A stretch of 59,965 nt of DNA from Candidatus Woesearchaeota archaeon (GCA_016177615.1 JACOUX010000019.1:1-59965), one strand, 5' to 3'. Positions 17,215 to 33,687 are shown, numbered from the stretch's first letter. Translations and numbers: made by a program. The notes: generated from the sequence alone by a model not told the origin.

Positions 17215-17865
17215 CTACTTTCCCTTCCTAAACGCTTCCCATGTGTCTAAAAACTCCTGTATGGTTTCTGTCGTCCTTGGATTTGTGACCATGTCCCTTA
17301 TGACAGGAGGCGTTATGGTAAGGATATGTGCGCCAGTAAGCATAGCCGCATTCACCTGCGATACCTGCCTGAAGCTTCCTAGGATTATCCTTGACTTCAC
17401 GCTGCTTTCACCAAAAAGCTTGACAGCATCTTCAGCGACTTTTTTCGCGTCATAGCCCATGTCTTCTATCCTTCCCCAGAAAAGGCTTACATAATCAGCG
17501 CCTGCCAAAGCTGCAAGGATGGCCTGCTTTGCAGCCATGCACGCAGTTACATTTGTCTTTATTCCAAGCTCCGAAAGGGTCTTGACGGCTTTCAGGCCAT
17601 TAACATTCATGGGAATCTTGACCACAACATTGCTGCCCCACGAATTGTATTCCTTTGCCTCGCTTATCATTCTGGAAGAATCATTTGTAGTGACTTCTAT
17701 GCTGACAGGCCCTTTTACAAGCTGCAAGATCTCCTTCATCCTCTTCTCGAAATCAACCCCTTCTTTTGCGCAGAGCTTTGGGTTTGTTGTACAGCCTGCC
17801 ACAATGCCCCAGCTAAGAAGCTCTTTCAAATCATCCAATGATGCAGTGTCTGCGAATATTTCCAT
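17215..17865 (-). CDS. tal: Transaldolase / fructose-6-phosphate aldolase (subfamily 3B)
   Basis: MEIFADTASLDD...GCTTNPKL...VVKIP (Schiff-base Lys region); 216 aa is typical of short TalC/Fsa-type enzymes. Confidence 0.9.
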   Translation of the reverse strand: MEIFADTASLDDLKELLSWGIVAGCTTNPKLCAKEGVDFEKRMKEILQLVKGPVSIEVTTNDSSRMISEAKEYNSWGSNVVVKIPMNVNGLKAVKTLSELGIKTNVTACMAAKQAILAALAGADYVSLFWGRIEDMGYDAKKVAEDAVKLFGESSVKSRIILGSFRQVSQVNAAMLTGAHILTITPPVIRDMVTNPRTTETIQEFLDTWEAFRKGK

Positions 17866-17942
17866 TTTTAATATGTCGGAAATATACCATTAATCTATGA
17901 TTGATGGACGTAAGTCCAATGTAGTTGTACAAGATGATATAT

Positions 17943-17970
17943 TTCCGAGCATGCTCAAAAACCACCTGTC
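17943..17970. repeat. Copy A of a 28-nt intergenic motif (TTCCGA-N3-TGCTCAAAAACCACCT-R-TC)
   Basis: 24 of 28 nt identical to 30410-30437, including a 16-nt exact core. A partial inverted copy lies at 18021-18036 and a related GTGGTTTTTGAC at 17191-17202. Confidence 0.5.
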
Positions 17971-17983
17971 TGCACGGGATGGC

Positions 17984-18595
17984 TTACAAGGCTTTCAGCC
18001 CATCATGCCACCCGTCTGTGACGGGTGGTTTTTGACATATTTTTAAATCTTCTACCTTTATCCTTAATGCAGCCTCATAAAGGTCTTTCACAATCTCAGC
18101 CTTAACTTTTTCCTGATGCATAAAATTGAAAACGTCATTTCTTTTAATGCCAATCAAAAATCTTTTGCGGAACGGCAAATCCACTTTTAAGTCGCTCAAA
18201 TTATCCCCGACAGCATATGATTTTCTAACGTCTATTTTAAATTTTTCTATTGATTCATTGAATAGTCCGTGCTTTGGCTTCCTGCAATTGCATTGGCCTG
18301 TAAACTCAGGATGGTGGATACAATTATAGATCGCATCAACTGGCAGCGATTTAAGAATTTTTCTGTCAATCTCTTCGAGGTCTTTTGCCTTTATGTAGCC
18401 GAAAGCCACCCCAGGCTGGTTGGATATCACTATAATCTTAAATCCGGATTGCTTAAGGGTTTTCAAGGCCTTGCCGACTTTAGGAAGAAAGTGAAGCTCT
18501 TTGGCATTCATGGCGCTGTAGATTCCTTTCTCATCATGGTACATCACCTTGTTTATCACACCATCTCGGTCAAGGAAAACTGCCTTTGATTTCAT
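17984..18595 (-). CDS. gmhB: D-glycero-D-manno-heptose 1,7-bisphosphate phosphatase (HAD, GmhB type), copy 1
   Basis: VFLDRDGVIN (HAD motif I) and QCNCRKPK (GmhB Zn/Cys motif). ATG 18595 forms an ATGA overlap with the upstream stop. The C-terminal roughly 20 aa read through a hairpin element. Confidence 0.8.
   Translation of the reverse strand: MKSKAVFLDRDGVINKVMYHDEKGIYSAMNAKELHFLPKVGKALKTLKQSGFKIIVISNQPGVAFGYIKAKDLEEIDRKILKSLPVDAIYNCIHHPEFTGQCNCRKPKHGLFNESIEKFKIDVRKSYAVGDNLSDLKVDLPFRKRFLIGIKRNDVFNFMHQEKVKAEIVKDLYEAALRIKVEDLKICQKPPVTDGWHDGLKAL
18008..18033 (+). terminator. Perfect 9-bp hairpin followed by T5 (intrinsic-terminator-like), embedded in the gmhB 3' end
   Basis: CCACCCGTC-tgt-GACGGGTGG-TTTTT. 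No plus-strand gene lies upstream, so its role is unclear. Confidence 0.35.
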
Positions 18596-19314
18596 TTGCC
18601 CATCTCCTGCCATAGGCTGCTCAATTTTTCCATTGTACCAATCTCCCTGTAGACAATATCATCAGGCATGACATAGCCATAAAGCTTTTTCTTCTCCTTC
18701 AAAAGCAAAGGGAAAAGATCGTATCCAAAATCAAATTTTTTCCTTGGAATGAATTTAAGGACATTAGGCTCAAGAATGTAAATTCCTGCATTAACCAGCC
18801 TGAAGGATTTGGATGACAAATCCGCCTCATCGATATCTGGCCTTTCAATGAACCTTTCGACCCTTAAGTTTTTATTCAAAATGACAGCGCTTGAGCTTTT
18901 CTGGCTGCTATTTTTTTTATGCAGCGCAATAGTTGCGAATGAGCCATTTGACTTATGGAATCTAGCAAGGTCTTCTAAGTCAAGGGTTGTAAAATTGTCG
19001 CCGTAAATCACGATAAACCTGTCATCAAAGAAATCCTCTGCGAGCTTCAAAGCCCCTGCAGTGCCCATTGGCTCTTTCTCGATTGAATATCTTATTTTTA
19101 CACCAAACCTTTTCCCTTCATTGAAATGGCTCATTATCCCTTCAGGCATGTAATGCAGGCACAATAACAGCTCTTTTATGCCGTATTTCCTGAACAATTC
19201 CACCTGATGCTCTATAAGCGGCTTGCCCGCAACCTTGATCATTGGCTTGGGCAAAGAGCTTGTCAATTTCCTCATCCTTTTTCCAAAGCCCCCTGCAAGA
19301 ATTACCCCTTTCAT
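18592..19314 (-). CDS. hddC: Sugar-1-phosphate nucleotidyltransferase, HddC-like (D-glycero-alpha-D-manno-heptose-1-P guanylyltransferase)
   Basis: MKGVILAGGFGKRMRKLT (GxGxR loop) and NAGIYILEP. Sits with gmhA, hddA and gmhB. Confidence 0.7.
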   Translation of the reverse strand: MKGVILAGGFGKRMRKLTSSLPKPMIKVAGKPLIEHQVELFRKYGIKELLLCLHYMPEGIMSHFNEGKRFGVKIRYSIEKEPMGTAGALKLAEDFFDDRFIVIYGDNFTTLDLEDLARFHKSNGSFATIALHKKNSSQKSSSAVILNKNLRVERFIERPDIDEADLSSKSFRLVNAGIYILEPNVLKFIPRKKFDFGYDLFPLLLKEKKKLYGYVMPDDIVYREIGTMEKLSSLWQEMGK

Positions 19315-19318
19315 GGAT

Positions 19319-19930
19319 TTAATCAGAATGCCTTATCTTTTCAATCAGCGCGAATATGATAAGATGGTGAAGCGCTATATGGAATGACTCAACATGAGGG
19401 GTTGAGTCTGCAGGAACAACAATACATGCGTCGCATATCTTCCTGAACATGCCTCCGTCAAATCCGGAAAAGCCGATTGTCTTTGCCCCTTTATCTTTGG
19501 CAAACTTCATTGCCTTTGGCAGGTTTTGGGACCACAAGCCGGCATCACCTGTGCCAGAGCCGCCGTGCACTGAAAACCCGACAACAACATCTCTAGGCTC
19601 TATAAGGTTTTCAAGCTGTCCCGTGAAAAGATTTTCAAACCCGTTGTCATTTGTCCATGCGCTCATAAGGGGAATATTGTCAGTCAATCCTATTGCCTTG
19701 AACCTTTTCTTTCCCGGCACGATAGAGGTCTTTGACAGGTCAGCAGCGAAGTGCGTTGCAGTGGAAGCTGACCCTCCGTTGCCCATTGCATAGACCTTGT
19801 TGCCATTCCTCCATGCCTCAAAAAGAATGTCGATTGCCTTGCTAATGTCTTCTTTCGATGTTTTTTCAATTACCTCGTGCATTTCGGAAAAATATTTTTC
19901 TATGAATTGCAAATTTTCCATTTTCATCAA
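19319..19930 (-). CDS. gmhA: Phosphoheptose (sedoheptulose-7-P) isomerase, SIS domain
   Basis: GNGGSASTATHFAADL and FSVHGGSG motifs, about 200 aa. Confidence 0.85.
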   Translation of the reverse strand: MMKMENLQFIEKYFSEMHEVIEKTSKEDISKAIDILFEAWRNGNKVYAMGNGGSASTATHFAADLSKTSIVPGKKRFKAIGLTDNIPLMSAWTNDNGFENLFTGQLENLIEPRDVVVGFSVHGGSGTGDAGLWSQNLPKAMKFAKDKGAKTIGFSGFDGGMFRKICDACIVVPADSTPHVESFHIALHHLIIFALIEKIRHSD

Positions 19931-20907
19931 ATGTCCAAAACAACCTTAGAGCCCTCAAAATCGAACCCGAAGCGCATCTCCTTTAAGCCTTTTTCTGCCA
20001 TTGCCTTTCTGAGGCCGGATTTGGCGCCGTCGCAGTAAAACATGAAAAATCCCCCTCCGCCTGCTCCCATTATCTTCCCTCCCATGGCCCCGCTTTTTAT
20101 GGCAGCATTATAGCACTCGTCTATAAATCCGTTCGATACCCTGCTTGATATTTTTTTCTTCGCGTTCCAGTGCACGTCAAGCATCTCCCCGAATCCTTTG
20201 GTGTTTCCCGACTCAAGACATTTTTTTGTCTTGATCGCTATCTCCTTGATTTTATGAAGATAGTCAACAGCATTCCCGCTTTCCTGGACAGACTTGTTTT
20301 GCTCTGAAAGCACATAAGATGACGGCCTTCTTATGCCGGTATAGAAAAGAAGGATATTATTTTCCAGCTCTTCCAGGGCATCACGAGCGATTTTCAGAGG
20401 AGTGACTGTAACTTTTCCGCTGCTGTCAAATTCAAGGCACTTTAAGCCCCCAAAAGATGCCATGTACTGGTCCTGCTTTCCGATAGGCTCCTTCAATATG
20501 TTTATCTCTATCCTGCAGGCTTCTTCAGCAATCTCATGGTTTGTTATATGCTCCCTTTTATGCGCGTGAATAGCCCTTAAAAGCCCAACAAGGAAGCTGC
20601 TGGAAGTTCCAAGGCCGCTGTTTGAAGGCACATCAGCCAATGATGTAATCTCAATTCCATCTGTGATTCCGAAAAGCCTGAGGCTCTCCCTCACTGTTGG
20701 ATGCTGCAACTCATCAACATTATTAACGGTCTCTGTCTTTGAGTATTTGACCTGAAGTCCGCTTTCGAACATCTTTGTAAGAGTCACATAAATATATTTG
20801 TTTATGGCCCCTGCAAGAAGAAAGCCATTATGCTTTGAATAATAGGATGCTAAGTCAGTGCCGCCTCCTCCAAGTGATATCCTTACAGGGGTCCTTGTTA
20901 TTATCAT
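19927..20907 (-). CDS. hddA: GHMP kinase, HddA-like (D-glycero-alpha-D-manno-heptose-7-P kinase)
   Basis: RISLGGGGTDL N-terminus, GHMP motif II VPSNSGLGTSSS and GAGGGGF motif III. ATGA overlap with gmhA. Confidence 0.75.
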   Translation of the reverse strand: MIITRTPVRISLGGGGTDLASYYSKHNGFLLAGAINKYIYVTLTKMFESGLQVKYSKTETVNNVDELQHPTVRESLRLFGITDGIEITSLADVPSNSGLGTSSSFLVGLLRAIHAHKREHITNHEIAEEACRIEINILKEPIGKQDQYMASFGGLKCLEFDSSGKVTVTPLKIARDALEELENNILLFYTGIRRPSSYVLSEQNKSVQESGNAVDYLHKIKEIAIKTKKCLESGNTKGFGEMLDVHWNAKKKISSRVSNGFIDECYNAAIKSGAMGGKIMGAGGGGFFMFYCDGAKSGLRKAMAEKGLKEMRFGFDFEGSKVVLDI

Positions 20908-20933
20908 AGAATCAGAGTAATAAATAACGCAAT

Positions 20934-22091
20934 TTAAACGTTTTGTTTCTCAGTAACAGGAATGGGAAATTCAGGCTTGTTTGCAGCGCCGTTGAACAGC
21001 TTTCTCGCCTTCAAGTCTGCGTACTTCACTGCTGCCTTGGCAAGCTGCTTGGGGTTAAACAGGACATTTGTGGATAATTGGCACTCGAAGGTGCAGAAGC
21101 ATTTTGTGTCCTTTATGTCCTTTCTAAGGGCTCCTGATGCTTCGTTGAGCCATATTTTTCTAAGATCATAATCGACATCCTTTAAGTTTCCCATCTTGCT
21201 GTCAGCCCTTATCTCGCATGCAAATACATCTCCTGTGGGATAGATAATTCCGTTTGTGATTCCAGCATAGCATGGGCTTTGGTACTTGCCTGTTTCAAAT
21301 GTCCTGACAAGCATGTCCCTGAAGACAAGGTTTGTTGCAGTATATAAATCTCCACCAAGAACCTTATAGCCCCCTATCTTGCCTTCCCTGATTTTTTTTT
21401 CTGTTTCTGCAAGCAGCTCCTTGTAGTGCTTGAGTGAATCCCCTGAAAGCTTTGCGCTTTTTGGCTTGCCCCTAAGCATGTTTATCTGAAAAAAATCAAC
21501 CTTGTATGTGTCTGTTATATAGTCAAACACTTCTTTTATTGAGGAGTCATTCTCCCCTGTCAGTGTGCATATGATTCCCACATCAAGCCTGCTGTATTTT
21601 TTCTTCAGCTCCAGAAGGCCCTTCAATGTTTCCATTGATTTTGAGAAGCACCCCTCCATTCCCCTTATCTGCTCATGCAGCTTTTCAGAGCCGTCGATTG
21701 AAACGCTTATATGCAGGTACAAGCCATGATTTTCCGACATTATCCTGTCCACTTTCTCAAGAGTCAATTTTGTCAGTGTGCCGTTTGTCGGGATTGATGC
21801 TATCCTCATTCCTGAATTTACCCTGAAATAATGTATGATCTTGTCTATGTCCTGCCGGAGAAAAGGCTCTCCTCCTGTAAATCCAACGTTGATGAGGTTG
21901 CTGACACTTTTAGTGAGCTTTTCGATATTATGGAGGTCGATTTCATTTTTCTTGTTAAGTTCTTCCCAATAAAAACAGTGGCTGCACTTGAGATTGCACC
22001 TGTCCGTCACATAGAAAATAAGATAGACCGGCATCTGTTTTTTTTTGTAAAATACGGTTTTGAGATGCTTTAAGTCTTGGAGTTCCAGCAT
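20934..22091 (-). CDS. Radical SAM enzyme with C-terminal SPASM/twitch-like Cys cluster
   Basis: CNLKCSHCF (CX3CX2C) near the N-terminus. C-terminal cysteines lie in SPCYAG, FACE and CFCTFEC. Confidence 0.8.
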   Translation of the reverse strand: MLELQDLKHLKTVFYKKKQMPVYLIFYVTDRCNLKCSHCFYWEELNKKNEIDLHNIEKLTKSVSNLINVGFTGGEPFLRQDIDKIIHYFRVNSGMRIASIPTNGTLTKLTLEKVDRIMSENHGLYLHISVSIDGSEKLHEQIRGMEGCFSKSMETLKGLLELKKKYSRLDVGIICTLTGENDSSIKEVFDYITDTYKVDFFQINMLRGKPKSAKLSGDSLKHYKELLAETEKKIREGKIGGYKVLGGDLYTATNLVFRDMLVRTFETGKYQSPCYAGITNGIIYPTGDVFACEIRADSKMGNLKDVDYDLRKIWLNEASGALRKDIKDTKCFCTFECQLSTNVLFNPKQLAKAAVKYADLKARKLFNGAANKPEFPIPVTEKQNV

Positions 22092-22094
22092 TTT

Positions 22095-23117
22095 CTATCC
22101 CCTGTTGCTAGGCCAATTGCAGTTTAAATATATTTCTGCTGCCTTTTTGCCTTCAAACGCGATGTTGAGCATTGATTTTATAAGGGCAAGATTTCCAAAA
22201 ATGGCCGATTTCAGGAAAGGGGTTGTGATATATAAAACTATCATCATAGTAATGTAAATGATTCCGTATATTAATGACACATATGAAATCCCTATGAAAA
22301 TGCCAAAAAGCAGGATAAAAAACAGAAAAGGCTGTAGGATGTATATTCCCAATTCAAAAGGATATATGGCCATGCCGAAAAGGCCGTATTTTGGATTGAA
22401 CAGCACGTCGCGGTTGCTCAGCATAACCAAAATCAGTCCAGTGCCCCTCCTTTCTTTCTGGGAACTGAGATCCTTGATAGATCTTAGTGATTCCTCGTAA
22501 AAAACGCATTCGCTTATGTATTTTACTTTATATCCCAGTTTCCTTATCTTTATTGCTATGTCTGTGTCGTCATAGAATGTGCCTATTTTCATCATGAGTT
22601 TTTTTTTCACAATCATGAACTGGCCGTGGAACACAGGTGCAGAGTCCAGTCTTGATTCCATCAGCCTTAATTTGGTGTAAAATTTCCTATAAGAGTCTTC
22701 AACACTAAAAGCATTGTGGCTTTGGCTCTTCGCCACAAGATTTTGGATGCCGCATACTGCTCCTATTTCATCGCTTGAGATATGTGGAATTGCTTTTTTC
22801 AATATGTCCTTTTTAAGCATGACGTCTGCATCTGTAATTGCGAATAAATCATGCCTTGCATAGCTTAAGGCCGTATTGACGCAGCCGACCTTTCCTTTTT
22901 GCTGCTTGTTTCGGACCAGCCTCACATTGCTGAACCTTGAGCAATATTTTTTTGCGATTTCCAAAGAATTGTCATTCGAGAAATCATCAACCAAAAGGAC
23001 ATCAAAGCAGTTTTTTGGGTAATCAAGGGCAAGAGTGTTCTCAATTTTCCTTGAAATTATCTTTTCTTCATTGAAAAACGGAATGGCTATTGTAAACTTT
23101 GGGATGCTCATTTTCAT
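22095..23117 (-). CDS. Membrane-anchored GT2 glycosyltransferase (processive synthase-like)
   Basis: IAIPFFNEE...LVDDFSNDNS...TDADV plus a QKERR (QxxRW-like) motif and C-terminal TM helices. Confidence 0.8.
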   Translation of the reverse strand: MKMSIPKFTIAIPFFNEEKIISRKIENTLALDYPKNCFDVLLVDDFSNDNSLEIAKKYCSRFSNVRLVRNKQQKGKVGCVNTALSYARHDLFAITDADVMLKKDILKKAIPHISSDEIGAVCGIQNLVAKSQSHNAFSVEDSYRKFYTKLRLMESRLDSAPVFHGQFMIVKKKLMMKIGTFYDDTDIAIKIRKLGYKVKYISECVFYEESLRSIKDLSSQKERRGTGLILVMLSNRDVLFNPKYGLFGMAIYPFELGIYILQPFLFFILLFGIFIGISYVSLIYGIIYITMMIVLYITTPFLKSAIFGNLALIKSMLNIAFEGKKAAEIYLNCNWPSNRG

Positions 23118-24622
23118 GCTATTATCTTTGCATCTACAAGCTGGGCATTCTCCTGAGTATTTTCTTCTGCATCAAACGAGACGAGCTGGTATCTGTTGAA
23201 GCTTATGTTTCTCTTCTCCTTAACCCTGTTTTCCTGGTGGTATCTGTAGTGCTCAATTCCCATGCTTGTATATTTTTCCGACAGCTCTATGTCTTTGTCC
23301 AGGATCATGTTAAAAGCTTCAGCGTTGCACAGCTGGTTATAGCTGTAGCCTTCATATTTTTTAATCTCATCTTCATATTCTTTTATCCCCATCTCTGCGT
23401 TTAAGTACCATGGGAATATCATCCAGTACCTCATCAGAGTGTCGTTGCTTATTGTAGGCAGGTTAAGGACAGGCTCGAAATTCCATACATTTGCCTCTTT
23501 TCCGTTGAACAGGCCGTTTTTTTGGCAGTAGTCAAAAAGATCGGTGCCCTTGACAGGAATCAAAAAAGTCGGCCTCAGCAAGGTTGGCCTTACTTTGGCA
23601 ATCAGCGAGATTGTATCATTTAAAGTGCTTTCATCCTCTCCTGGGATTCCAAAGATAATATAGGCATAGCTCCTGATGCCGTATTTCCTGCAAAGCCCAA
23701 AGCCTTTAACTATCTTATCATAGTTCAGCTGCTTTTTCACAAAGTCAAGCAGCTTCTGGCTTCCTGTCTCAAGGCCAAACTGGATTTCCCTGCAGCCGCT
23801 GTCAGCAAGTGCCTTGGCTGTAACATCAACCAAAGTGTCAAGCCTTGACTCAATGCAGTATTGTATCCCGTAAACATCATAAATCTCTTTTTTGTACGCT
23901 GAAGTGAAGTCCATCAGCCATTTGAAGTTAAGGGTGAACAGGTCATCATCGAAATTGAATACCTTGACAGGAAATTTGCTTACAAGATATTTGAGCTCTT
24001 CTACTATCTTATCAACATTCTTTCTCCTGACGATATAGTAATTCTTCGCCTCATGTATTCTTGGGACTCCGCAGAAAGTGCATTTGTATGGGCATCCCCT
24101 TGAAAGCGGAAGGTTTAGCCACCCGTTTTTTGTGCCGATGATAGTGGCCATGTCAAGCAAATCCCAGTCTGTCATCGGCAGTGTGTTTATGTCTTCCACA
24201 GGCTTGCCATGGATTATTCCTTTTGCCTCAAGAAGCCCTTTGGCCATCTCCGAAAAGACTATCTCTCCATCTCCGACGACAAAAGCATCAAAGTTGGAGC
24301 CATTAAACTCATGCGGCGCAATGGTCGCATGAACTCCTCCAAGTATGATCGGCACCTTAATGCCATGGCTTTTCAGATATCCTGCAATCTGGTTGCTTCT
24401 TGTAAACTCAAAGGAAGTGCACGTGAACCCAATGATATCCGGGTTAAATTCCTTAATATCCTGCAGAATTACAGCGTCATTGTCAACAACGCCATTCTCG
24501 TTGTTTATGTGTATAACGCCAACCTTGTGGCCTTCGCTCTTCAACACAGCAGAAATAGCCTGCAAAGCAGGAGAATGGGCTATAGGGGAATACATATTAG
24601 GATAAATAAATAATATTCTCAT
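23114..24622 (-). CDS. B12-binding-domain radical SAM enzyme (class B, methyltransferase-like)
   Basis: N-terminal Rossmann-like cobalamin-binding domain (MRILFIYPN...GFTCTS...GGVHAT) followed by RGCPYKCTFC (CX3CX2C). Confidence 0.85.
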   Translation of the reverse strand: MRILFIYPNMYSPIAHSPALQAISAVLKSEGHKVGVIHINNENGVVDNDAVILQDIKEFNPDIIGFTCTSFEFTRSNQIAGYLKSHGIKVPIILGGVHATIAPHEFNGSNFDAFVVGDGEIVFSEMAKGLLEAKGIIHGKPVEDINTLPMTDWDLLDMATIIGTKNGWLNLPLSRGCPYKCTFCGVPRIHEAKNYYIVRRKNVDKIVEELKYLVSKFPVKVFNFDDDLFTLNFKWLMDFTSAYKKEIYDVYGIQYCIESRLDTLVDVTAKALADSGCREIQFGLETGSQKLLDFVKKQLNYDKIVKGFGLCRKYGIRSYAYIIFGIPGEDESTLNDTISLIAKVRPTLLRPTFLIPVKGTDLFDYCQKNGLFNGKEANVWNFEPVLNLPTISNDTLMRYWMIFPWYLNAEMGIKEYEDEIKKYEGYSYNQLCNAEAFNMILDKDIELSEKYTSMGIEHYRYHQENRVKEKRNISFNRYQLVSFDAEENTQENAQLVDAKIIA

Positions 24623-24681
24623 ATTAAAGGCTAAGCAGCCCTATAAGTTTATAAATATTTTGAAAATTAACGATAGTTAAC

Positions 24682-25404
24682 TCAATCCACGAACCTGTAC
24701 TTAATAATCGCCCAGAGCGACCTGAACCCGTCTCTTGCTATGTGGACTTTCTTTCCTTCCATAAACGACCTTGAGCTGTAGCTTACAGGGACTTCAACAG
24801 GCTTTATTCCTTTTTTAAGCAGCTTGGATATTATTTCCGCATCCAGCTCAAACCCTGTTGACTTGAACTTTATCCCTTTTATGGAATTCCTTGTAAATAC
24901 CTTGTACATTGTCGCTATGTCAGTCATCTTGACTCCGTAAAGAATGAGGTATGTTAGATTAAATATCAGCCCGCCATAGTTCAAAACAAGAGAAGACATC
25001 TTGTCCCCTTTTAACGCCCTTATTTTCCAATGGCCCCTCTTTAATGTCCTTGAGCCAAGCACAAACTCTGTTTTGCCCTCAGCTATCGGCTTTATCAGCC
25101 TTTTGTAGTCATTGACATCATATTCAAGGTCGGCATCCTGTATGATTATTATGTCGCCTGTTGCATTGCTCATGCCAATCCTGACTGCGCTTCCTTTTCC
25201 ATTGGCTTTTTTTTCAAAAATCACCTTTGTGCCGGACATTTTTCTGTATTTTCTCGCAATTTCCCTGCAGCCGTCAGTTGAATTGCTCTCAACGATAATT
25301 ACCTCTTTTTTGGCGCTTCCCAAGTCTACATTGTAAACCCTTCTGATAATCTCTGGAAATGTTTTTGCCTCGTTATAAACCGGAATTATTATCGAAACCT
25401 TCAT
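24682..25404 (-). CDS. GT2 glycosyltransferase (soluble, Dpm1/GtrB-like catalytic domain), tandem paralog A
   Basis: VSIIIPVYNEAKT...IIIIQDADLEYD. Roughly half the positions match the neighbouring paralog on visual alignment. Confidence 0.85.
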   Translation of the reverse strand: MKVSIIIPVYNEAKTFPEIIRRVYNVDLGSAKKEVIIVESNSTDGCREIARKYRKMSGTKVIFEKKANGKGSAVRIGMSNATGDIIIIQDADLEYDVNDYKRLIKPIAEGKTEFVLGSRTLKRGHWKIRALKGDKMSSLVLNYGGLIFNLTYLILYGVKMTDIATMYKVFTRNSIKGIKFKSTGFELDAEIISKLLKKGIKPVEVPVSYSSRSFMEGKKVHIARDGFRSLWAIIKYRFVD

Positions 25405-25406
25405 TT

Positions 25407-26105
25407 TCAGTTGAGAAACCTGTACTTTACAAGATAAAATGCCGCCTTAAGGCCGTCAACCCACGTAATTTTCTTGCCTTCATCAAATTTCCTGCCGAAA
25501 AACTTTATCGGCACTTCGTGTATCTTATAGCCGTTCTTGAGGATTTTTGCCGTTATCTCAGGCTCAAAGTCAAACCTTTTTGACTTCAATATTATTTTTT
25601 TTAGCACTTCCCTTTTGATCACCTTATAGCCTGTTTCCATGTCTGTGATTTTTGCGCCGTACAAGGCATTTGTCATGAATGTCAGAAGCAGATTGCCAAG
25701 GTAATGCAGTTTATACATCTTATTCAGATTTTTCTTTATTGCCTGAAGCCTCGACCCATACACTACATCTGCTTCTCCCTTGATTATGGGAGCTAAAAGC
25801 CTTGGATACTCGCTTGGGTCATATTCAAGGTCGGCATCCTGTATCAATATTATGCCGCCTGTTGCCTTTTCAAGCCCTGTCCTGATTGCAGTCCCCTTTC
25901 CCATATTTCTTGGATGAAGCAATATTTTTATCCGGCTATCGCGGATTCTTTTCAAGATGTCTCTTGTCCCGTCGCCTGAGAAGTCGTCAACAATTATCAG
26001 CTCTTTGGATGCTTCTTTTAATTTTACATTCTTTACTTTTTCAATAACATCCCTTATGGTCTTTGCTTCGTTGTAGACTGGAATTATAATGGACAGCTTT
26101 TCCAT
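25407..26105 (-). CDS. GT2 glycosyltransferase, tandem paralog B
   Basis: LSIIIPVYNEAKT...IIVDDFSGDGT...ILIQDADLEYD. Confidence 0.85.
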   Translation of the reverse strand: MEKLSIIIPVYNEAKTIRDVIEKVKNVKLKEASKELIIVDDFSGDGTRDILKRIRDSRIKILLHPRNMGKGTAIRTGLEKATGGIILIQDADLEYDPSEYPRLLAPIIKGEADVVYGSRLQAIKKNLNKMYKLHYLGNLLLTFMTNALYGAKITDMETGYKVIKREVLKKIILKSKRFDFEPEITAKILKNGYKIHEVPIKFFGRKFDEGKKITWVDGLKAAFYLVKYRFLN

Positions 26106-26136
26106 CAGAAATTAAAACTTAAAATCGTTTAAAAAA

Positions 26137-26634
26137 CTATTGATTTCTGTAAACGCTCAGGATTCTGCTTATGACTTTTGTTGTCGAATATTCCTTCTCC
26201 ATCTTCGCTATTACAATTTTCCCCCCATTATTTTCAACAATGCCTTTTTCCAAGATTTCGCTTGGGCTGTAATCGCCCCCTTTTGAGTGGACATTCGGCT
26301 TTATTTTTGACAGCCAGCTTCTTGGATCAGGTTCCCTGAACGTGAAGATATAATCGACGCTTTCCAGCCCAGCCAAAACACCCATTCTTGATTTCTCATT
26401 GTTGATTGGCCTCTTGTCACTTTTGAACTGCTTGACAGAAGAATCAGAATTTATGCCCACTATCAGTATATCGCCCAGCCTTTTTGCCTCCTCAAGGTAC
26501 TTTACATGCCCGAGGTGCAGGATGTCAAAAACCCCGTTTGTGGTAACAATTTTTTTGTTTTCCTTTTTCAGCCTTTTGGCTATTTTGATAATTTCTCCCA
26601 AAGTCTTGATTTTATCGCTTATTGCCATTTTCAA
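26137..26634 (-). CDS. hldC: D-beta-D-heptose-1-phosphate adenylyltransferase (stand-alone RfaE/HldE domain II)
   Basis: TTNGVFDILHLGHVKYLEEAK (HxGH cytidylyltransferase-fold motif); 165 aa. Confidence 0.8.
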   Translation of the reverse strand: MKMAISDKIKTLGEIIKIAKRLKKENKKIVTTNGVFDILHLGHVKYLEEAKRLGDILIVGINSDSSVKQFKSDKRPINNEKSRMGVLAGLESVDYIFTFREPDPRSWLSKIKPNVHSKGGDYSPSEILEKGIVENNGGKIVIAKMEKEYSTTKVISRILSVYRNQ

Positions 26635-27154
26635 AGTTCTCTATAATCCACTTAGCGGCATCCAGCAGGTCTCTTGCGGCATAATCAGGATGAACTTCAT
26701 TTTTCGCATTGCTTCCATAGCCAGTCATGACATGAATTGTCCTGCACCCTGCATCCCTTCCCATCTCGAAATCGCTTTTCCTGTCCCCTATGACAAAAGA
26801 CTTCTGCAGATCCACATTAAACTCCTCTTCTGCCTGTTTCAGAAGCTTGATTTTCGGCTTTCTGCAATCGCAGTTGTCATCAGGCTTGTGCGGGCAGTAA
26901 TAAGTCTTTGCAATTGATATTCCGTTCTTTTTCAATTCATCCAGGACCCTTTTATTGTAATTAAAAAAATCCTCAAGCTTGTAGTATCCCCTTCCTATTC
27001 CGGACTGGTTTGTGATAAAAAATAATTTATAATCCTTGAGCACTTTAAGCCCTTCAATTGCGTTTGGAATCAGCTTAAAGTCCTCTATCCTGTGCACATA
27101 TCCTATGTCCTCTGTCACGACCCCATCACGATCCATGAAAATAGCCGGCATCAT
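26612..27154 (-). CDS. gmhB: D,D-heptose 1,7-bisphosphate phosphatase (GmhB), copy 2
   Basis: IFMDRDGVV and DNCDCRKPK motifs; 180 aa. Confidence 0.85.
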   Translation of the reverse strand: MMPAIFMDRDGVVTEDIGYVHRIEDFKLIPNAIEGLKVLKDYKLFFITNQSGIGRGYYKLEDFFNYNKRVLDELKKNGISIAKTYYCPHKPDDNCDCRKPKIKLLKQAEEEFNVDLQKSFVIGDRKSDFEMGRDAGCRTIHVMTGYGSNAKNEVHPDYAARDLLDAAKWIIENFENGNKR

Positions 27155-28125
27155 AAGTCCTTAATCTCCTTTTTTATTTCATCAATGCTCACCGTTGCCG
27201 TGCCTATCTTGCCTACTTTTATGCCAGCTGCAATATTTGCAATGACAGCGGCGTCCTTCAGGCTGGCGCCCGAGGCCATCGCAAGGGCAATTGCAGCAAC
27301 AACAGTGTCGCCTGCCCCAATCAGGCTATAAACTTCCCTTGCTTTTGTTGGAATGTGGGTTATGCTTCCGCCTGGCTCAAATAAGGACATTCCTTTTTCC
27401 CCCCTGGTGACAAGCACACTTGTGTTCAGCTGCTTCAGAAGCCTGTTGCCGATTTCTATTACTGCTTCGTCACTTCCGTCTTCAATCCCCGCCATTTCAG
27501 ATGCTTCGGCATTATTTGGAGTTATCAAGGTTACATTTGAATAGAAATCCCTGTGCTTCGGCTTTGGGTCAACAATTATGGGCTTATTGAGTTTATTGCA
27601 TAATTCAATTGCCTTGCTGCCGATTTCCCTTGTAATTACTCCCTTTGCATAATCAGAAATGACCACTACATCCATGTCTTTTACGCTTCTTTCCAGAAAT
27701 TTTATTATCAGCGTCTCAACTTTTTTGTGCACGTGCTCTTTGTTCTCGTAATCAACCCTCAAAAGCTGCTGGCTCCTGCCTATCACCCTTATTTTCTGCG
27801 TCGTTGGCTTATCGCTGTCAGTAACAATTCCATCGGTAGTTATGCCCTTTTTTTTGAGCTCTTTAAGGAGAATGGCCTTTGCGCTGTCATTTCCGGCAAT
27901 GCCCACCATGACAGCCCTGCCGCTCAACGCAGAAATATTGTTGGCGACATTTGCTGCGCCCCCTGCCTCATAAGTTTCCCTAATCACATTTACCACCTGC
28001 ACTGGCGCCTCTGGGCTTATCCTTGAAACGTCGCCCCATATGTACTTGTCAAGCATTATGTCGCCTATGACCAGGATATTCTTGTTTTTGAAATTCTCCA
28101 GGATTTTCAGCAGCATTTGCTTCAT
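27151..28125 (-). CDS. hldA: D-beta-D-heptose-7-phosphate kinase (stand-alone RfaE/HldE domain I, PfkB family)
   Basis: ILVIGDIMLDKY N-terminus, GGAANVA and the IGAGDTVVA PfkB signature. Confidence 0.85.
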   Translation of the reverse strand: MKQMLLKILENFKNKNILVIGDIMLDKYIWGDVSRISPEAPVQVVNVIRETYEAGGAANVANNISALSGRAVMVGIAGNDSAKAILLKELKKKGITTDGIVTDSDKPTTQKIRVIGRSQQLLRVDYENKEHVHKKVETLIIKFLERSVKDMDVVVISDYAKGVITREIGSKAIELCNKLNKPIIVDPKPKHRDFYSNVTLITPNNAEASEMAGIEDGSDEAVIEIGNRLLKQLNTSVLVTRGEKGMSLFEPGGSITHIPTKAREVYSLIGAGDTVVAAIALAMASGASLKDAAVIANIAAGIKVGKIGTATVSIDEIKKEIKDL

Positions 28126-29033
28126 TTGATTTCACCCTTTTCAATAATCAGCCTGTGCAGCGTAGGTATTGTCTTTTCATGCCTTCCAATGATCATAAAT
28201 CCCTTTCCGCCTAATGAAATCGGCCTTGTCACAACATTTTCCCTTGGCCTGTAATGGTCAATCATGTCAAAGTTCGCAGCTGTGACGTTTTCAATTTTAT
28301 GCCCCAGATTTCTTGCGATTGTCAGTGCTTTTAAGAATACCTCAGGCAGGATTACTGCACACCCAACGTTTAAAATAATTCCCTCTTCAAGCTTGCTAAC
28401 GTTTTCAGTGAAAATCTTGAAATCCTGATATGAAGTTTTCCCGATTGCAGCCCCGTCGCAGCTCGGATGCTGGTGCACAATGTCGGTTCCGATTGCTATA
28501 TGCACAGTAACTGGAATCTTCAGCCTGTATGCATTGTACAAAATGCTGCATTCCTTGTTTGGCAAATTCAAGTCATTTATTTTTTTGCCGATAGCGTATC
28601 CCGCTCCAAAATTATTTTTTGCCCCTTCTTTCAGCGCGTCATTGAGAATTCGTCCGGTTTCCTCGGTCATTCCGAATGTTCCGTCTTCAATTGTTTGCTC
28701 GACATACTCTGAAGTTTCCCCTATTAATGCCAATTCAAAATCATGTATCGGGCCTGCGCCGTTCATAGCAACATGCTTTATTATCCCTTTTTTCATCAGG
28801 TCTATGACAAGAAAGCTCATTCCGGTCTTGATGACATGCGCACCCATCATGAGGATTATCTCCTTCTTCCTGACATGAGCATTGATTATTCTGTACACTA
28901 AATCATTCAATTCTATAGAATCCATTAAAATCTCGGAGTTTTCTGGCTTAATCAAATCACTTAGCCTTACCTTGTTCTTTCTCTGCCTTATGGGGATTGT
29001 CTTGATTTTGTTGAAGTCCAGCATTTTAATCAC
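28122..29033 (-). CDS. Deoxyhypusine-synthase-like (DHS/sirtuin-like Rossmann) family protein, function unknown
   Basis: MMGAHVIKTGMSFLVIDLMKKGIIKHVAMNGAGPIHDFE and IPVTVHIAIGTD follow the DHS-fold pattern (mobile Gly-rich segments, VxxxGxxxxD). Recognised from memory only. Confidence 0.45.
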   Translation of the reverse strand: MIKMLDFNKIKTIPIRQRKNKVRLSDLIKPENSEILMDSIELNDLVYRIINAHVRKKEIILMMGAHVIKTGMSFLVIDLMKKGIIKHVAMNGAGPIHDFELALIGETSEYVEQTIEDGTFGMTEETGRILNDALKEGAKNNFGAGYAIGKKINDLNLPNKECSILYNAYRLKIPVTVHIAIGTDIVHQHPSCDGAAIGKTSYQDFKIFTENVSKLEEGIILNVGCAVILPEVFLKALTIARNLGHKIENVTAANFDMIDHYRPRENVVTRPISLGGKGFMIIGRHEKTIPTLHRLIIEKGEIK

Positions 29034-29446
29034 TTGAATATTTCTTCATTTAATCTTCTTGCAGGCCGCAGCTTTACATTATCATCATTGTCAGTTGTTG
29101 ATATTTCCAAAACAGTGCTTTTTGGCACTAATGATTTGAACGTATGAATCACCCTTGGCTCCAGCCTGAATTTGTCGCCTTTCTCCAAAACAATTGTGCT
29201 GGCAGGAGCATCTAATCCGCTTGCATAAGTGAGAGAGACCTTGCCTTCAATGACAACAAACGTCTCGTCTTTGCGCTCATGATAATGCCAGCTTGACTCG
29301 AACCCCTCGTGCAAAATCAAAAGCTTATTGCAGTACTTTTCGTTGTTCTCAATCCACAGCTCATAGCCCCAAAGATGGTCGTGCCTCTCGCCTTTAAACC
29401 CTGCCAAAAATTTAACATGCTCCTCTTTGAATTTTTTCTCTGACAT
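29030..29446 (-). CDS. Cupin-domain protein (sugar isomerase/epimerase-like)
   Basis: ESSWHYHERKDETFVVIEGKV...RLEPRVIHTF matches the two-motif cupin signature; 138 aa. First gene of the operon. Confidence 0.75.
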   Translation of the reverse strand: MSEKKFKEEHVKFLAGFKGERHDHLWGYELWIENNEKYCNKLLILHEGFESSWHYHERKDETFVVIEGKVSLTYASGLDAPASTIVLEKGDKFRLEPRVIHTFKSLVPKSTVLEISTTDNDDNVKLRPARRLNEEIFK

Positions 29447-32547: not shown

Positions 32548-33687
32548 CTAAACCATCTTCTCAACTTCCTTCAGCACATCATCCACGCTTATGTTCTTCA
32601 TGCATTTTTGGTAGTCGTTTGAATTTCTTGGATAGAGGCAGTCAGGAACCTGTCCTTTGTGAACATTTATGCACGGTGAAAATTCACAGTTATATCCTTT
32701 GTACAGGCTAACATTCCCTTTGCCGTAAGGACCGAAGCGTACCGGGAGATTTGGGCCGAATAACCCAAGCGTCCTGATGCCCTGCGCTGCCGCGATATGC
32801 ATCGGGCCTGCGTCGTTGCCGACAAACAATTTGCATTTTGTGATTAAATAAAACAGCTGGGTCAAGGTAATTTTTCCAGCAAAATTAAAACACTTGCTTT
32901 TGTTCTCCATTTTTTCAATGATGCCATTCACTAAATCCATTTCATCAATGCTTCCAGAAAAAACTATCTTTGCATTATGCCTTGCAATAACTTCGTCACA
33001 CAGCTCAGCATACCTTTCAAGAGGCCACATCCTTGCCTTTGCAGATTCAGCTGCCCCGGGAGCAACACAAACAACAAAATCATTTTTTTTAATTCCATTT
33101 TTCTTCAAAAAATTGTCAACAATTTTAATATCATTTTTTGAATAATTCAGCTCAGGCAGCTTCTCTGCATCATAATCAATTCCCAAAATCCTTGCCAGAT
33201 CCAGAAATGTCTGCACAGCATGCTGCTTGTCATTATACCTGACTCTCTCGTCGTATAGTTTTGACCTTGCTCCATGGGAATAGCCGACAACTCTCTTTCC
33301 TGCAAAGAAAGAAATGATTGCGGAAACATTGAGGTATTCCTCCATATCAATAGCCAAGTCATATTTTTTGTTGTTATTTATAATAAAATTCAATACAGAA
33401 AACAGGCTTGTTTTGACATAAAGGATATTATCCACTTTATCATTGCCAAAAAAAACATCCTTATTTCTTGAGGTTGCGAGAATATCTATACGGGAATCGG
33501 AAAATTTTTTTCTCAGCGCTTCTATTGCCGGCAATGCCAATATTGTCTCTCCAATGCCCCATAGCTGGACAACCAGGATATTTTTAATTTCGGACTTATT
33601 AATGGGCTTTCGTTTAGCAAAAGCTCCGAGTAGGCGGCAAATGATTTTGCCCAAATGCCTGTCAATCAGCTTTGTAAGGAGTACCAT
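32548..33687 (-). CDS. Glycosyltransferase family 9 (heptosyltransferase-like), second copy
   Basis: ILVVQLWGIGETILALPAIEALRK and FVGNDAGPMHIAAAQGIRTLGLFGP are GT9 hallmarks. Confidence 0.8.
   Translation of the reverse strand: MVLLTKLIDRHLGKIICRLLGAFAKRKPINKSEIKNILVVQLWGIGETILALPAIEALRKKFSDSRIDILATSRNKDVFFGNDKVDNILYVKTSLFSVLNFIINNNKKYDLAIDMEEYLNVSAIISFFAGKRVVGYSHGARSKLYDERVRYNDKQHAVQTFLDLARILGIDYDAEKLPELNYSKNDIKIVDNFLKKNGIKKNDFVVCVAPGAAESAKARMWPLERYAELCDEVIARHNAKIVFSGSIDEMDLVNGIIEKMENKSKCFNFAGKITLTQLFYLITKCKLFVGNDAGPMHIAAAQGIRTLGLFGPNLPVRFGPYGKGNVSLYKGYNCEFSPCINVHKGQVPDCLYPRNSNDYQKCMKNISVDDVLKEVEKMV

What the first reader, a model, noticed from the sequence alone, without database searches (positions are those of the whole stretch)
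20934..24622. Two radical-SAM enzymes (SPASM-type and B12-binding) embedded in the heptose operon may carry out unusual sugar tailoring
A CX3CX2C radical-SAM protein with extra C-terminal Cys clusters (20934-22091) and a class-B cobalamin-domain radical-SAM protein (23114-24622) sandwich a membrane-anchored, synthase-like GT2 (22095-23117). They lie between the ADP-heptose and GDP-heptose gene sets. Class-B enzymes such as GenK and Fom3 methylate unactivated sp3 carbons. Twitch/SPASM enzymes of BtrN or DesII type oxidise or deaminate sugars. Their position argues for radical C-methylation and/or oxidation or epimerisation of a heptose or its polymer. That would be a modification not described for archaeal glycans. 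It could also stand in for the NAD-dependent dehydratases and epimerases that bacterial heptose-modification clusters use and that are absent here.
Basis: inference. Interest (0 to 1): 0.65.

Follow-up and report, generated by a model that had tools for sequence, protein, structure and literature searches.

The report
Radical-SAM sugar-tailoring trio in archaeal heptose operon
A groundwater archaeon carries two uncharacterised radical-SAM enzymes and a membrane glycosyltransferase inside its heptose-sugar operon; gene neighbourhoods and gene fusions elsewhere show that they modify surface sugars, but the chemistry is still unknown.

Summary
Window 20934-24622 (minus strand) encodes three tightly packed genes: a B12-domain radical-SAM protein (502 aa), a synthase-like GT2 with a C-terminal membrane anchor (340 aa), and a radical-SAM protein with a C-terminal Fe-S domain (385 aa). 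They sit in a 15-gene operon between an ADP-heptose gene set and an HddA/HddC-like gene set, within an archaeal glycosylation island that ends at AglB.

Neither radical-SAM protein reaches the cutoff of any curated family.

- **B12-domain enzyme.** Its clade is enriched next to heptose genes: 5 of 12 loci against 1 of 91 (p=5e-5). It usually lies beside NDP-sugar 4,6-dehydratase or aminotransferase genes. More distant relatives are fused to an SDR.
- **Second enzyme.** It is not canonical SPASM. It has four invariant C-terminal Cys, a twitch-like pattern consistent with one auxiliary cluster. Its family is tied to GT2, not to heptose: a GT2 is adjacent in every context read, and all nine long family members tested are GT2 fusions.

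The chemistry is not resolved. For the B12 enzyme, the cobalamin-type N-domain favours C-methylation, while the AprD4/HpnJ-like core allows dehydration or ring contraction. For the twitch enzyme, oxidation or epimerisation is inferred only. This is a new variant of a known kind, of moderate interest.

The parts
23114..24622 (-). B12-binding-domain radical-SAM protein (502 aa), from an uncharacterised clade linked to nucleotide-heptose genes
   Evidence: Pfam PF02310 plus PF04055. CX3CX2C at residues 177-184 and a conserved TSTSF...GG B12-type motif. All NCBIfam hits are below cutoff. AF2 model pLDDT 89. PDB fold matches to AprD4, MgmA, TsrM, TokK and CysS are about equal. Clade context.
22095..23117 (-). 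Synthase-like GT2 glycosyltransferase (340 aa) with a C-terminal membrane anchor
   Evidence: Pfam GT2, Glyco_trans_2_3 and Glyco_transf_21. Hydrophobic stretch 251-307. Conserved D94xD96, D182 and Q218xxR221. A 42% identical homologue is again followed by the same rSAM family in L173.
20934..22091 (-). Radical-SAM protein (385 aa) with a twitch-like C-terminal domain; four invariant Cys fit one auxiliary Fe-S cluster; the family is coupled to GT2
   Evidence: Pfam Radical_SAM, with a marginal SPASM match. C274, C292, C331 and C333 are invariant in 146 of 146 family members, C337 in 135 of 146, E293 in 145 of 146. All nine long family members tested are GT2 fusions. AF2 pLDDT 87; the fold resembles CteB, anSME, SkfB, BlsE, DesII and BtrN about equally.
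26137..28125 (-). ADP-heptose set: heptose-7-P kinase (27151-28125), GmhB-like phosphatase (26612-27154), heptose-1-P adenylyltransferase (26137-26634)
   Evidence: TIGR02198 376.7 bits > 345. TIGR02199 184.9 > 181.5. The GmhB model scores 164.6 against a cutoff of 178.
24682..26105 (-). Two AglJ-like / Dol-P-sugar-synthase-like GT2 genes directly upstream of the trio
   Evidence: The best NCBIfam match is TIGR04182 (AglJ), E about 1e-36, below cutoff. Both genes are conserved in L001.
17984..20907 (-). Second NDP-heptose set: HddA-like GHMP kinase, GmhA-like isomerase, HddC-like nucleotidyltransferase, GmhB-like phosphatase
   Evidence: Best NCBIfam hits are HddA (197 bits, cutoff 600) and gmhA (107, cutoff 209). 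HddC (105, cutoff 300) is one of several similar hits. GmhB scores 119 (cutoff 178). The nucleotide used is not determined.
28122..29446 (-). Head of the operon: WbuC/lyxose-isomerase-like cupin and a GSU2086-family protein
   Evidence: Pfam Cupin_2 and Lyx_isomer. NF052581 415.7 bits > 250. 4-nt overlaps with the downstream genes. The GSU2086-family gene is conserved in L001.
17215..17865 (-). FSA/TalC-type transaldolase at the operon end; probable supplier of sedoheptulose-7-P
   Evidence: Pfam TAL_FSA E=8e-47. TIGR00875 212.5 bits against a cutoff of 246. Conserved in L001.

Best explanation
The three genes are glycan-tailoring genes of an archaeal surface or N-glycosylation operon. They form two functional units.

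(1) The B12-domain radical-SAM enzyme most likely acts on a nucleotide-activated heptose, or a closely related NDP-sugar, made by the flanking genes. The most likely reaction is cobalamin-dependent radical methylation of an unactivated sugar carbon, in the manner of GenK.

(2) The membrane-anchored GT2 and the twitch-type radical-SAM enzyme work as a pair. The GT2 transfers a sugar onto a lipid carrier or growing glycan. The radical-SAM enzyme would abstract a hydrogen from that sugar and oxidise or epimerise it, with one auxiliary [4Fe-4S] cluster inferred from the four invariant Cys.

Shown here: the domain architecture, operon coupling, conservation, the heptose association of the B12 clade, and the GT2 fusions and adjacency of the twitch family. 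Inferred only: the substrate level (NDP-sugar or lipid-linked), cobalamin binding, and both reaction types.
For: Domains and motifs.

Operon coupling: a 15-gene operon with overlaps or short gaps. The whole operon is conserved in a relative whose trio proteins are 58-84% identical, with purifying-selection signatures.

B12-rSAM clade. GmhA, HldE-kinase or GT9 genes lie within 10 kb in 5 of 12 independent in-clade loci, against 1 of 91 outside (Fisher p=5e-5). These loci include Aenigmarchaeota (L010, L012), Omnitrophota (L013) and Lachnospiraceae (L014, where the gene sits between HddA and HddC). Its direct neighbours are NDP-sugar 4,6-dehydratase-like SDRs (L012, L014, L005) and a PseC-like aminotransferase (L006). 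More distant homologues (31-33% identity) are fused to an SDR (P0097, P0101).

Cobalamin-type N-domain. PF02310 scores 62 bits against a cutoff of 32. The family profile aligns its N-terminal domain with the cobalamin-binding domains of TsrM, OxsB, CysS, TokK and 4Q37, but not with the N-domain of AprD4. A TSTSF...GG motif with canonical SxL-(26-28)-GG spacing is conserved, and T69, G95 and G96 are invariant. Most characterised B12-rSAMs are C-methyltransferases, and several act on sugars (GenK, GenD1, Fms7, MoeK5; PMC12931638).

Twitch rSAM and GT2. A GT2 lies within two genes in the window, L001, L007, L009, L170, L171 and L173. P0172 is a fusion. Twelve of the top 150 family representatives are 618-743 aa long, and all nine tested are GT2-rSAM fusions, in both domain orders.

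Island context: AglB/STT3, two GT9, AglJ-like GT2 and PMT-like genes.
Against: No curated family cutoff is reached, and no characterised homologue is close.

The radical-SAM core of the B12 enzyme is most similar to AprD4 (profile E=5.6e-25) and, among NCBIfam models, to ApyD and HpnJ. AprD4 does not bind cobalamin (PMC12931638), and neither AprD4 nor HpnJ is known as a methyltransferase. Foldseek cannot separate AprD4 from the methylases (TMq 0.60-0.65).

The closest non-syntenic relatives (42-48% identity; L003, L004, L091) have no heptose genes. HddA/HddC-like pairs without GmhA also accompany B12-rSAMs outside the clade (9 of 91 loci). The clade was delimited after the fact from a neighbour-joining tree.

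The GT2/twitch pair occurs without heptose genes in five loci.

If the host is a small-genome (DPANN-like) archaeon, which is an inference, it would probably have to scavenge cobalamin.
Confidence: 0.5

Rival explanations
1. The B12-domain enzyme is not a methyltransferase. It is an AprD4- or HpnJ/Cds-type radical enzyme that dehydrates a vicinal diol (giving a deoxy-keto heptose) or contracts the sugar ring to a carbocycle. An oxidoreductase or aminotransferase then finishes the product.
For: AprD4 is the best PDB match by sequence (E=3.6e-16, profile 5.6e-25) and by fold (TMq 0.63-0.65). The HpnJ model gives E=1e-32. In-clade relatives sit directly beside SDRs or an aminotransferase (L005, L006, L012, L014), and more distant homologues are fused to an SDR (P0097, P0101). 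This mirrors the AprD4 plus AprD3 reductase pair (PMC5461906). HpnI (a glycosyltransferase) followed by HpnJ, and the archaeal Cds, are precedents for rSAM remodelling of a transferred sugar (PMC13459092).
Against: The AprD4 and HpnJ models score far below their cutoffs (66.8 against 500; 113.5 against 577.6). AprD4 matches only residues 142-398. The N-terminal domain instead aligns with proven cobalamin-binding domains and keeps an SxL...GG-type motif. No reductase or SDR is present in the window's operon. The SDRs in L006 and on the minus strand of L012 look like HldD, an ordinary ADP-heptose pathway enzyme.
Confidence: 0.25
2. The trio is a generic glycan-modification cassette that happens to sit between the heptose genes. 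All three proteins act on a non-heptose residue, for example a hexose or uronic acid transferred by the GT2. Heptose is added separately by the GT9 enzymes.
For: The GT2/twitch-rSAM pair, often together with B12-rSAMs of other subfamilies, recurs in loci with no heptose genes: L007, L009, L170, L171, L173. UDP-glucose dehydrogenase genes lie near the pair in L009 and L170. The 42-48% identical B12-rSAM relatives lack heptose genes. The window has two separate GT9 heptosyltransferases, at 6481-7503 and 32548-33687.
Against: Heptose genes are significantly enriched around the B12 clade across phyla. In L014 the B12-rSAM lies inside the HddA...HddC/GmhB/GmhA run. The operon places the trio between the two heptose sets with minimal spacing.
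Confidence: 0.2
3. One or both radical-SAM enzymes act on a non-sugar substrate. Candidates are a peptide or protein (RiPP or anSME-like maturation), the polyprenyl/dolichol carrier, or a membrane lipid.
For: The best sequence and fold matches of the twitch enzyme include peptide-modifying enzymes (anSME, SkfB, CteB, SuiB) and the tetrapyrrole enzymes AhbC/AhbD/NirJ. The B12 enzyme hits ApyD (RiPP), hopanoid and ladderane-lipid models, and MgmA.
Against: All these hits are far below family cutoffs. No precursor-peptide, sulfatase or tetrapyrrole genes were seen in the window. GT2 fusions and exclusively glycan-gene neighbourhoods argue for a sugar.
Confidence: 0.05

Closest known systems
GenK / GenD1 / Fms7 / MoeK5 (cobalamin-dependent radical-SAM C-methyltransferases acting on sugars)
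   Same: An N-terminal B12-type Rossmann domain followed by a CX3CX2C radical-SAM barrel. Sugar-pathway context. Expected methylation of an unactivated sp3 carbon (PMC12931638).
   Different: No significant specific similarity was detected, and no curated model is matched. The known enzymes act on aminoglycoside or moenomycin intermediates in actinomycete secondary metabolism. This one sits in an archaeal glycosylation operon beside nucleotide-heptose genes. Cobalamin binding and methyl transfer are untested.
AprD4 (radical-SAM 1,2-diol dehydratase) with its reductase AprD3
   Same: Best PDB match by sequence and by fold for the radical-SAM core. It acts on a sugar ring. The SDR neighbours of in-clade relatives and the SDR fusions of more distant homologues recall the AprD4/AprD3 pair (PMC5461906).
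   Different: About 16-17% identity, and NF033070 scores 66.8 against a cutoff of 500. AprD4's N-domain does not bind cobalamin (PMC12931638) and is not aligned by the family profile. No reductase is present in this operon.
HpnI-HpnK-HpnJ (hopanoid cyclitol ether) and archaeal calditol synthase Cds
   Same: A glycosyltransferase places a sugar on a membrane-bound acceptor, and a radical-SAM enzyme then remodels that sugar (PMC13459092). The window's GT2 matches the Glyco_transf_21 and HpnI models weakly, and the B12 enzyme matches HpnJ (E=1e-32).
   Different: The HpnJ model scores 113.5 against a cutoff of 577.6. No deacetylase lies within the operon. The context is a protein or surface glycan (AglB, GT9), not a hopanoid or GDGT lipid. 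Cds could not be compared directly.
BtrN / NeoN / HygY / BlsE / DesII (radical-SAM enzymes that oxidise, epimerise, decarboxylate or deaminate sugars; several are twitch-type)
   Same: A radical-SAM barrel. The 4-Cys CX17C...CXC pattern resembles BtrN's twitch motif (recalled from memory, not tested). BlsE, DesII and BtrN are among the fold matches.
   Different: TM-scores of about 0.41-0.57 (query-normalised) are no better than for peptide-modifying SPASM enzymes. No sequence-level family membership. The GT2 coupling and fusion seen here is not a feature of the solved enzymes matched in this analysis.

Membership tests
Class B (cobalamin-dependent) radical-SAM enzymes | CX3CX2C radical-SAM cluster motif in a TIM-barrel core | tested here: met
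   C177x3C181x2C184 is invariant in 18 homologues. PF04055 E=4e-22.
Class B (cobalamin-dependent) radical-SAM enzymes | N-terminal B12-binding Rossmann domain | tested here: met
   PF02310 scores 62.3 bits against a cutoff of 32.1. The family profile aligns the N-domain with TsrM, OxsB, CysS, TokK and 4Q37. A TSTSF...GG motif is conserved.
Class B (cobalamin-dependent) radical-SAM enzymes | Actual cobalamin binding and methyl transfer | not testable with these tools
   This needs reconstitution. AprD4 shows that a similar architecture can lack cobalamin (PMC12931638).
Any curated B12-rSAM subfamily (ApyD, HpnJ, PhpK, BchE, HpnR, MgmA, AprD4, KedN5 and others) | Score at or above the NCBIfam curated cutoff | tested here: not met
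   The best hit is ApyD, 127.8 bits against 750. HpnJ scores 113.5 against 577.6, and AprD4 66.8 against 500.
SPASM-domain radical-SAM enzymes | Seven-Cys motif CX9-15GX4C...CX2CX5CX3C...C binding two auxiliary clusters | tested here: not met
   Only C274, C292, C331 and C333 are invariant (146 of 146), and C337 is present in 135 of 146. The pattern is CX17C...CXCX3C. The Pfam SPASM match is marginal, 23.2 bits against 21.5.
Twitch-domain radical-SAM enzymes (BtrN, MoaA type) | Abridged C-terminal domain with one auxiliary cluster held by 3-4 Cys, on a beta-hairpin plus helix | tested here: inconclusive
   The Cys pattern and the predicted beta-hairpin (280-290) followed by helices fit. BtrN and MoaA are fold matches, but no better than SPASM enzymes. 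Cluster content cannot be tested here.
anSME / AhbC / AhbD / NirJ / RiPP maturases | Score at or above the NCBIfam curated cutoff | tested here: not met
   The best hit is AhbC, 82.5 bits against 650. All 66 hits are below cutoff.
ADP-heptose pathway (HldE kinase and adenylyltransferase) | Match to the rfaE domain I and domain II equivalog models | tested here: met
   TIGR02198 376.7 bits > 345, and TIGR02199 184.9 > 181.5.
GDP-D-glycero-alpha-D-manno-heptose pathway (HddA, HddC) | Match to the HddA and HddC equivalog models | tested here: not met
   HddA scores 196.9 bits against 600, and HddC 105.1 against 300. HddC is only one of several comparable nucleotidyltransferase hits. These genes are pathway-like, and the nucleotide used is unknown.
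Processive synthase-like GT2 (PgaC/NodC/CesA type) | DxD, a catalytic D and a Q(Q/R)xRW motif, plus transmembrane helices | tested here: inconclusive
   D94xD96, D182 and Q218xxR221 are conserved, but the W is not. There is one C-terminal hydrophobic block, 251-307. PgaC scores 69.9 bits against a cutoff of 422.

The most novel reading that the evidence does not exclude
The B12-domain enzyme is the first cobalamin-dependent radical-SAM enzyme to act on a nucleotide-heptose. It would make a C-methylated (eight-carbon) or otherwise radically remodelled heptose for an archaeal surface glycan. The GT2-coupled twitch radical-SAM family (more than 3000 50%-identity cluster representatives at E<=1e-30, about 8% of the closest 150 fused to GT2) is a widespread, undescribed class of enzymes that modify a sugar by radical chemistry at the moment of glycosyl transfer.
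Probability: 0.3. Interest if true: 0.75.

Novelty: new variant of a known kind. Interest (0 to 1): 0.58.

Why it matters
Radical-SAM tailoring of sugars is known almost only from antibiotic pathways (GenK, AprD4, BtrN, DesII) and from two lipid head-group cases (HpnJ, Cds). Here two uncharacterised families are tied by comparative genomics to primary cell-surface glycan synthesis.

- One family is linked to nucleotide-heptose pathways in both archaea and bacteria.
- The other is physically fused to GT2 glycosyltransferases in many lineages.

If the chemistry is confirmed, it would add new monosaccharide types to archaeal and bacterial glycans. It would also give a functional handle on thousands of unannotated radical-SAM genes. 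And it would show how anaerobes can replace or extend NAD-dependent sugar tailoring with radical chemistry.

Tried and rejected
1. Assignment to a curated family was not possible. Every NCBIfam hit for both rSAMs is far below cutoff.

2. PDB sequence and fold searches did not discriminate. For the B12 enzyme, AprD4, MgmA, TsrM, TokK, CysS and OxsB all give TMq 0.58-0.65. For the twitch enzyme, CteB, anSME, SkfB, BlsE, SuiB and DesII give about 0.51-0.58, with MoaA, EpeE and BtrN lower.

3. L172 was tested as a full fused copy of the trio and rejected. The rSAM half of its rSAM-GT2 fusion is not homologous to the window's twitch enzyme. It only shows that rSAM-GT2 fusions recur.

4. SDR neighbours were considered as evidence for AprD3-like partners. 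This was weakened because the SDRs in L006 and on the minus strand of L012 look like HldD.

5. Literature searches on radical SAM with heptose, nucleotide sugar, glycan or archaeal N-glycan found nothing relevant.

6. Taxonomy through cluster-member names gave only 'archaeon'. Archaeal origin was instead inferred from AglB, GatD/GatE, A-type ATPase, ATP-dependent ligase and CDC48.

7. RNA data were not available. Only groundwater DNA metagenome runs hold the sequence, so expression was not examined.

Full report
**What is there**

On the minus strand, window 17215-29446 holds 15 ORFs. Neighbouring genes overlap by 4-23 nt or are separated by 2-59 nt; only the last gap, before the transaldolase gene, is larger (118 nt). 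In transcription order they are:

- a WbuC/lyxose-isomerase-like cupin;
- a GSU2086-family protein;
- heptose-7-P kinase (rfaE domain I, 376.7 bits > 345);
- a GmhB-like phosphatase;
- heptose-1-P adenylyltransferase (rfaE domain II, 184.9 > 181.5);
- two AglJ-like GT2s;
- the B12-domain radical-SAM protein (23114-24622);
- a synthase-like GT2 (22095-23117);
- the second radical-SAM protein (20934-22091);
- an HddA-like GHMP kinase;
- a GmhA-like isomerase;
- an HddC-like nucleotidyltransferase;
- a second GmhB-like phosphatase;
- an FSA/TalC transaldolase.

The surrounding 38 kb is a glycosylation island. It contains two GT9 heptosyltransferases, GT4, GT2 and PMT-like genes, a formyltransferase, a PIG-L deacetylase and a 1034-aa AglB/STT3. 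AglB, GatD/GatE, A-type ATPase subunits, an ATP-dependent DNA ligase and an intein-bearing CDC48 mark the organism as an archaeon. The sequence is found in groundwater metagenomes.

**Observation check**

- The B12-domain protein has PF02310 plus PF04055 and an invariant C177x3C181x2C184.
- The other protein has C32x3C36x2C39 plus C-terminal cysteines.
- The GT2 has DxD, D182 and QxxR motifs and one 57-residue C-terminal hydrophobic block.

A relative in another groundwater sample (L001) keeps the entire operon. Its trio proteins are 79%, 58% and 84% identical to the window's. Nucleotide differences concentrate at third codon positions, 0.47-0.56 per codon against 0.09-0.23 at second positions. 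These are real genes under selection.

Two refinements apply. First, the 'SPASM' protein is not a canonical SPASM enzyme. Across 146 family representatives only four C-terminal Cys are invariant (C274, C292, C331, C333). C337 is present in 135 of 146, and E293 in 145 of 146. This CX17C...CXC pattern is twitch-like and fits one auxiliary cluster. Second, the 'GDP' label for the second heptose set is not established, because HddA and HddC score far below their equivalog cutoffs.

**Family placement**

Neither radical-SAM protein reaches any curated NCBIfam cutoff.

- B12 enzyme: ApyD 128 bits against 750, HpnJ 114 against 578, AprD4 67 against 500.
- Twitch enzyme: AhbC 83 against 650, and NirJ, AhbD and all RiPP maturases also below cutoff.

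AlphaFold models are confident, with pLDDT 89 and 87. Foldseek gives only superfamily-level answers. The B12 enzyme matches AprD4, MgmA, TsrM, CysS, TokK and OxsB at TMq 0.58-0.65. The twitch enzyme matches CteB, anSME, SkfB, BlsE, SuiB and DesII at about 0.51-0.58, with MoaA, EpeE and BtrN lower at 0.41-0.48.

A profile of the B12 family against PDB sequences gives a mosaic signal. The radical-SAM core is closest to AprD4 (E=5.6e-25, residues 142-398). The N-terminal domain aligns only with proven cobalamin-binding domains: TsrM, OxsB, CysS, TokK and 4Q37. The family keeps a TSTSF...GG motif with the spacing of the classical SxL-(26-28)-GG cobalamin motif. That motif assignment rests on established knowledge of B12 domains. 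AprD4 does not bind cobalamin (PMC12931638).

**Comparative context of the B12-domain enzyme**

I fetched loci around homologues from GTDB genomes and JGI metagenomes and from individual contigs. I then searched them with the window's operon proteins using tblastn.

A neighbour-joining tree places the window's protein in a clade of sequences 32-48% identical to it. Among 12 independent in-clade loci of at least 10 kb, five carry a GmhA-like, HldE-kinase-like or GT9 gene. Among 91 B12-rSAM loci outside the clade, one does (Fisher one-sided p=5e-5). The five loci come from different lineages:

- an NCBI assembly (L006): GT9, GmhA, GmhB, HldE, an HldD-like SDR, the B12-rSAM, a PseC-like aminotransferase, GT9;
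- Aenigmarchaeota (L012): the same ADP-heptose set, then a 4,6-dehydratase-like SDR directly upstream of the B12-rSAM, then GT9;
- a second Aenigmatarchaeota locus (L010);
- Omnitrophota (L013);
- a Lachnospiraceae MAG (L014): HddA, the B12-rSAM, an SDR, HddC/GmhB, GmhA.

More distant homologues (31-33% identity) are fused to an SDR domain (P0097, P0101). This pattern points to a substrate at the nucleotide-sugar level and to a preference for heptose pathways.

Four caveats apply. The clade was defined after the fact. The closest non-syntenic relatives (42-48% identity; L003, L004, L091) lack heptose genes. HddA/HddC-like pairs without GmhA also accompany B12-rSAMs outside the clade (9 of 91 loci). 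Several of the SDRs may simply be HldD.

**Comparative context of the twitch enzyme and the GT2**

A GT2 lies within two genes of this rSAM family in every context read:

- the window and L001;
- L007 (B12-rSAM, then the twitch rSAM, then a GT2);
- L009 (two GT2s, the rSAM, then a flippase);
- L170 (a GT2 overlapping the rSAM);
- L171 (PMT, the rSAM, a second rSAM, a GT2);
- L173, found independently by starting from the GT2. Here a 42% identical GT2 overlaps a 38% identical rSAM in the same order. A 4,6-dehydratase-like SDR, a nucleotidyltransferase and two other B12-rSAMs flank them.

P0172 is a GT2-rSAM fusion. An exhaustive profile search found 3057 cluster representatives at E<=1e-30. Twelve of the best 150 are 618-743 aa long, and all nine tested are GT2-rSAM fusions. 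Eight have the GT2 at the N-terminus and one has the reverse order. Fusion in both orders, together with constant adjacency, is strong evidence that the GT2 and this rSAM handle the same molecule. None of these other loci has detectable heptose genes, so the pair is not heptose-specific.

**Mechanism proposed**

Shown: the operon makes ADP-heptose and probably a second NDP-heptose. The B12-domain enzyme belongs to an NDP-sugar and heptose-associated clade. The GT2 and the twitch rSAM form a conserved couple.

Inferred:

- The B12 enzyme uses SAM-derived 5'-deoxyadenosyl radical to abstract a hydrogen from a sugar carbon of NDP-heptose, and methylcobalamin delivers a methyl group, as in GenK. 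I favour this weakly because of the cobalamin-type N-domain and because most characterised class-B enzymes are methylases (PMC12931638).
- The main rival is AprD4- or HpnJ/Cds-type dehydration or ring contraction. The core similarity supports it, and so do the precedents AprD4/AprD3 (PMC5461906) and HpnI, HpnJ and Cds (PMC13459092).
- The membrane GT2 transfers a sugar to a polyprenyl carrier or glycan. The twitch enzyme then oxidises or epimerises it, with the auxiliary cluster as electron acceptor.
- The near-invariant E293 and the frequent C337 are candidates for catalytic base and H-atom donor. This last step is by analogy with BtrN and NeoN/HygY and rests on my own knowledge. It was not tested.

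**Comparison with what is known, and novelty**

Heptose is already known in an archaeal N-glycan, in Thermoplasma (PMC11407970). NDP-heptose enzymes are known in archaea (PMC11461863). An archaeal rSAM that remodels a lipid-bound sugar is also known (Cds).

No paper in the held library links a radical-SAM enzyme to heptose, nucleotide-sugar or archaeal glycan tailoring. The 2026 review of B12-rSAM enzymes lists no such case.

I therefore rate this a new variant of a known kind. Two uncharacterised radical-SAM families have well-supported glycan roles, and their chemistry is unknown.

**Verdict**

- Observation: confirmed.
- Interpretation: partly supported. The sugar-tailoring role is supported. 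Heptose specificity holds only for the B12 enzyme, and only statistically. The chemistry is open.
- Interest: 0.58.

Noticed in passing
window 28122-29446 (-): The operon starts with a WbuC/lyxose-isomerase-like cupin and a GSU2086-family protein (415.7 bits > 250; weak resemblance to deoxyhypusine synthase). Their genes overlap each other and the heptose kinase gene by 4 nt. The GSU2086-family gene is conserved in L001. They may be further sugar isomerase or oxidoreductase steps.
   Followed up: partly
window 17215-17865 (-): An FSA/TalC-type transaldolase closes the heptose operon and is conserved in L001. It could supply sedoheptulose-7-P. From memory, it also recalls the LmbR transaldolase of the GDP-octose route, which uses homologues of GmhA, HddA, GmhB and HddC.
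   Followed up: no
window 6481-7503 (-) and 32548-33687 (-): An archaeon carries two GT9 heptosyltransferase-like genes next to AglB (34756-37860). This suggests that heptose goes into a protein-linked or surface glycan rather than into LPS.
   Followed up: partly
window 26137-26634 (-): In the heptose-1-P adenylyltransferase, the motif ends ...MEKEYSTT. There is no arginine five residues before STT, so it lacks the STTR5 feature reported to allow CDP- and UDP-heptose synthesis (PMC11461863).
   Followed up: partly
window 41092-45111 (+): A CDC48/VCP-type AAA ATPase of 1339 aa is interrupted by an intein with a LAGLIDADG homing-endonuclease domain.
   Followed up: no
window 53129-53235 (+): Rfam finds a tRNA spanning 107 nt (50.8 bits), but ARAGORN reports none. 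This is probably an intron-containing archaeal tRNA.
   Followed up: no
window 12254-17189 (+) and 9847-11511 (-): Three large ORFs (798, 849 and 554 aa) have no Pfam match and lie next to the heptose operon. An 850-aa ORF with no Pfam hit occupies the equivalent position in L001. They may be surface proteins or glycosylation targets.
   Followed up: no
L003 and L004: The closest non-syntenic B12-rSAM relatives (46-47% identity) sit in clusters with two or three B12-rSAMs, LicD, methyltransferases and GTs. In L003 long runs of very small unannotated ORFs and an intein surround the cluster. This may be a virus or mobile element carrying glycan-tailoring genes.
   Followed up: no
L172 8001-12990: A B12-rSAM+SDR fusion (820 aa) is followed directly by a different rSAM+GT2 fusion (837 aa). 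This shows that rSAM-GT2 and rSAM-SDR fusions arose more than once.
   Followed up: partly
window 50361-51284 (+): A Fic/DOC-domain protein is encoded between two unannotated small ORFs and the GatE gene.
   Followed up: no
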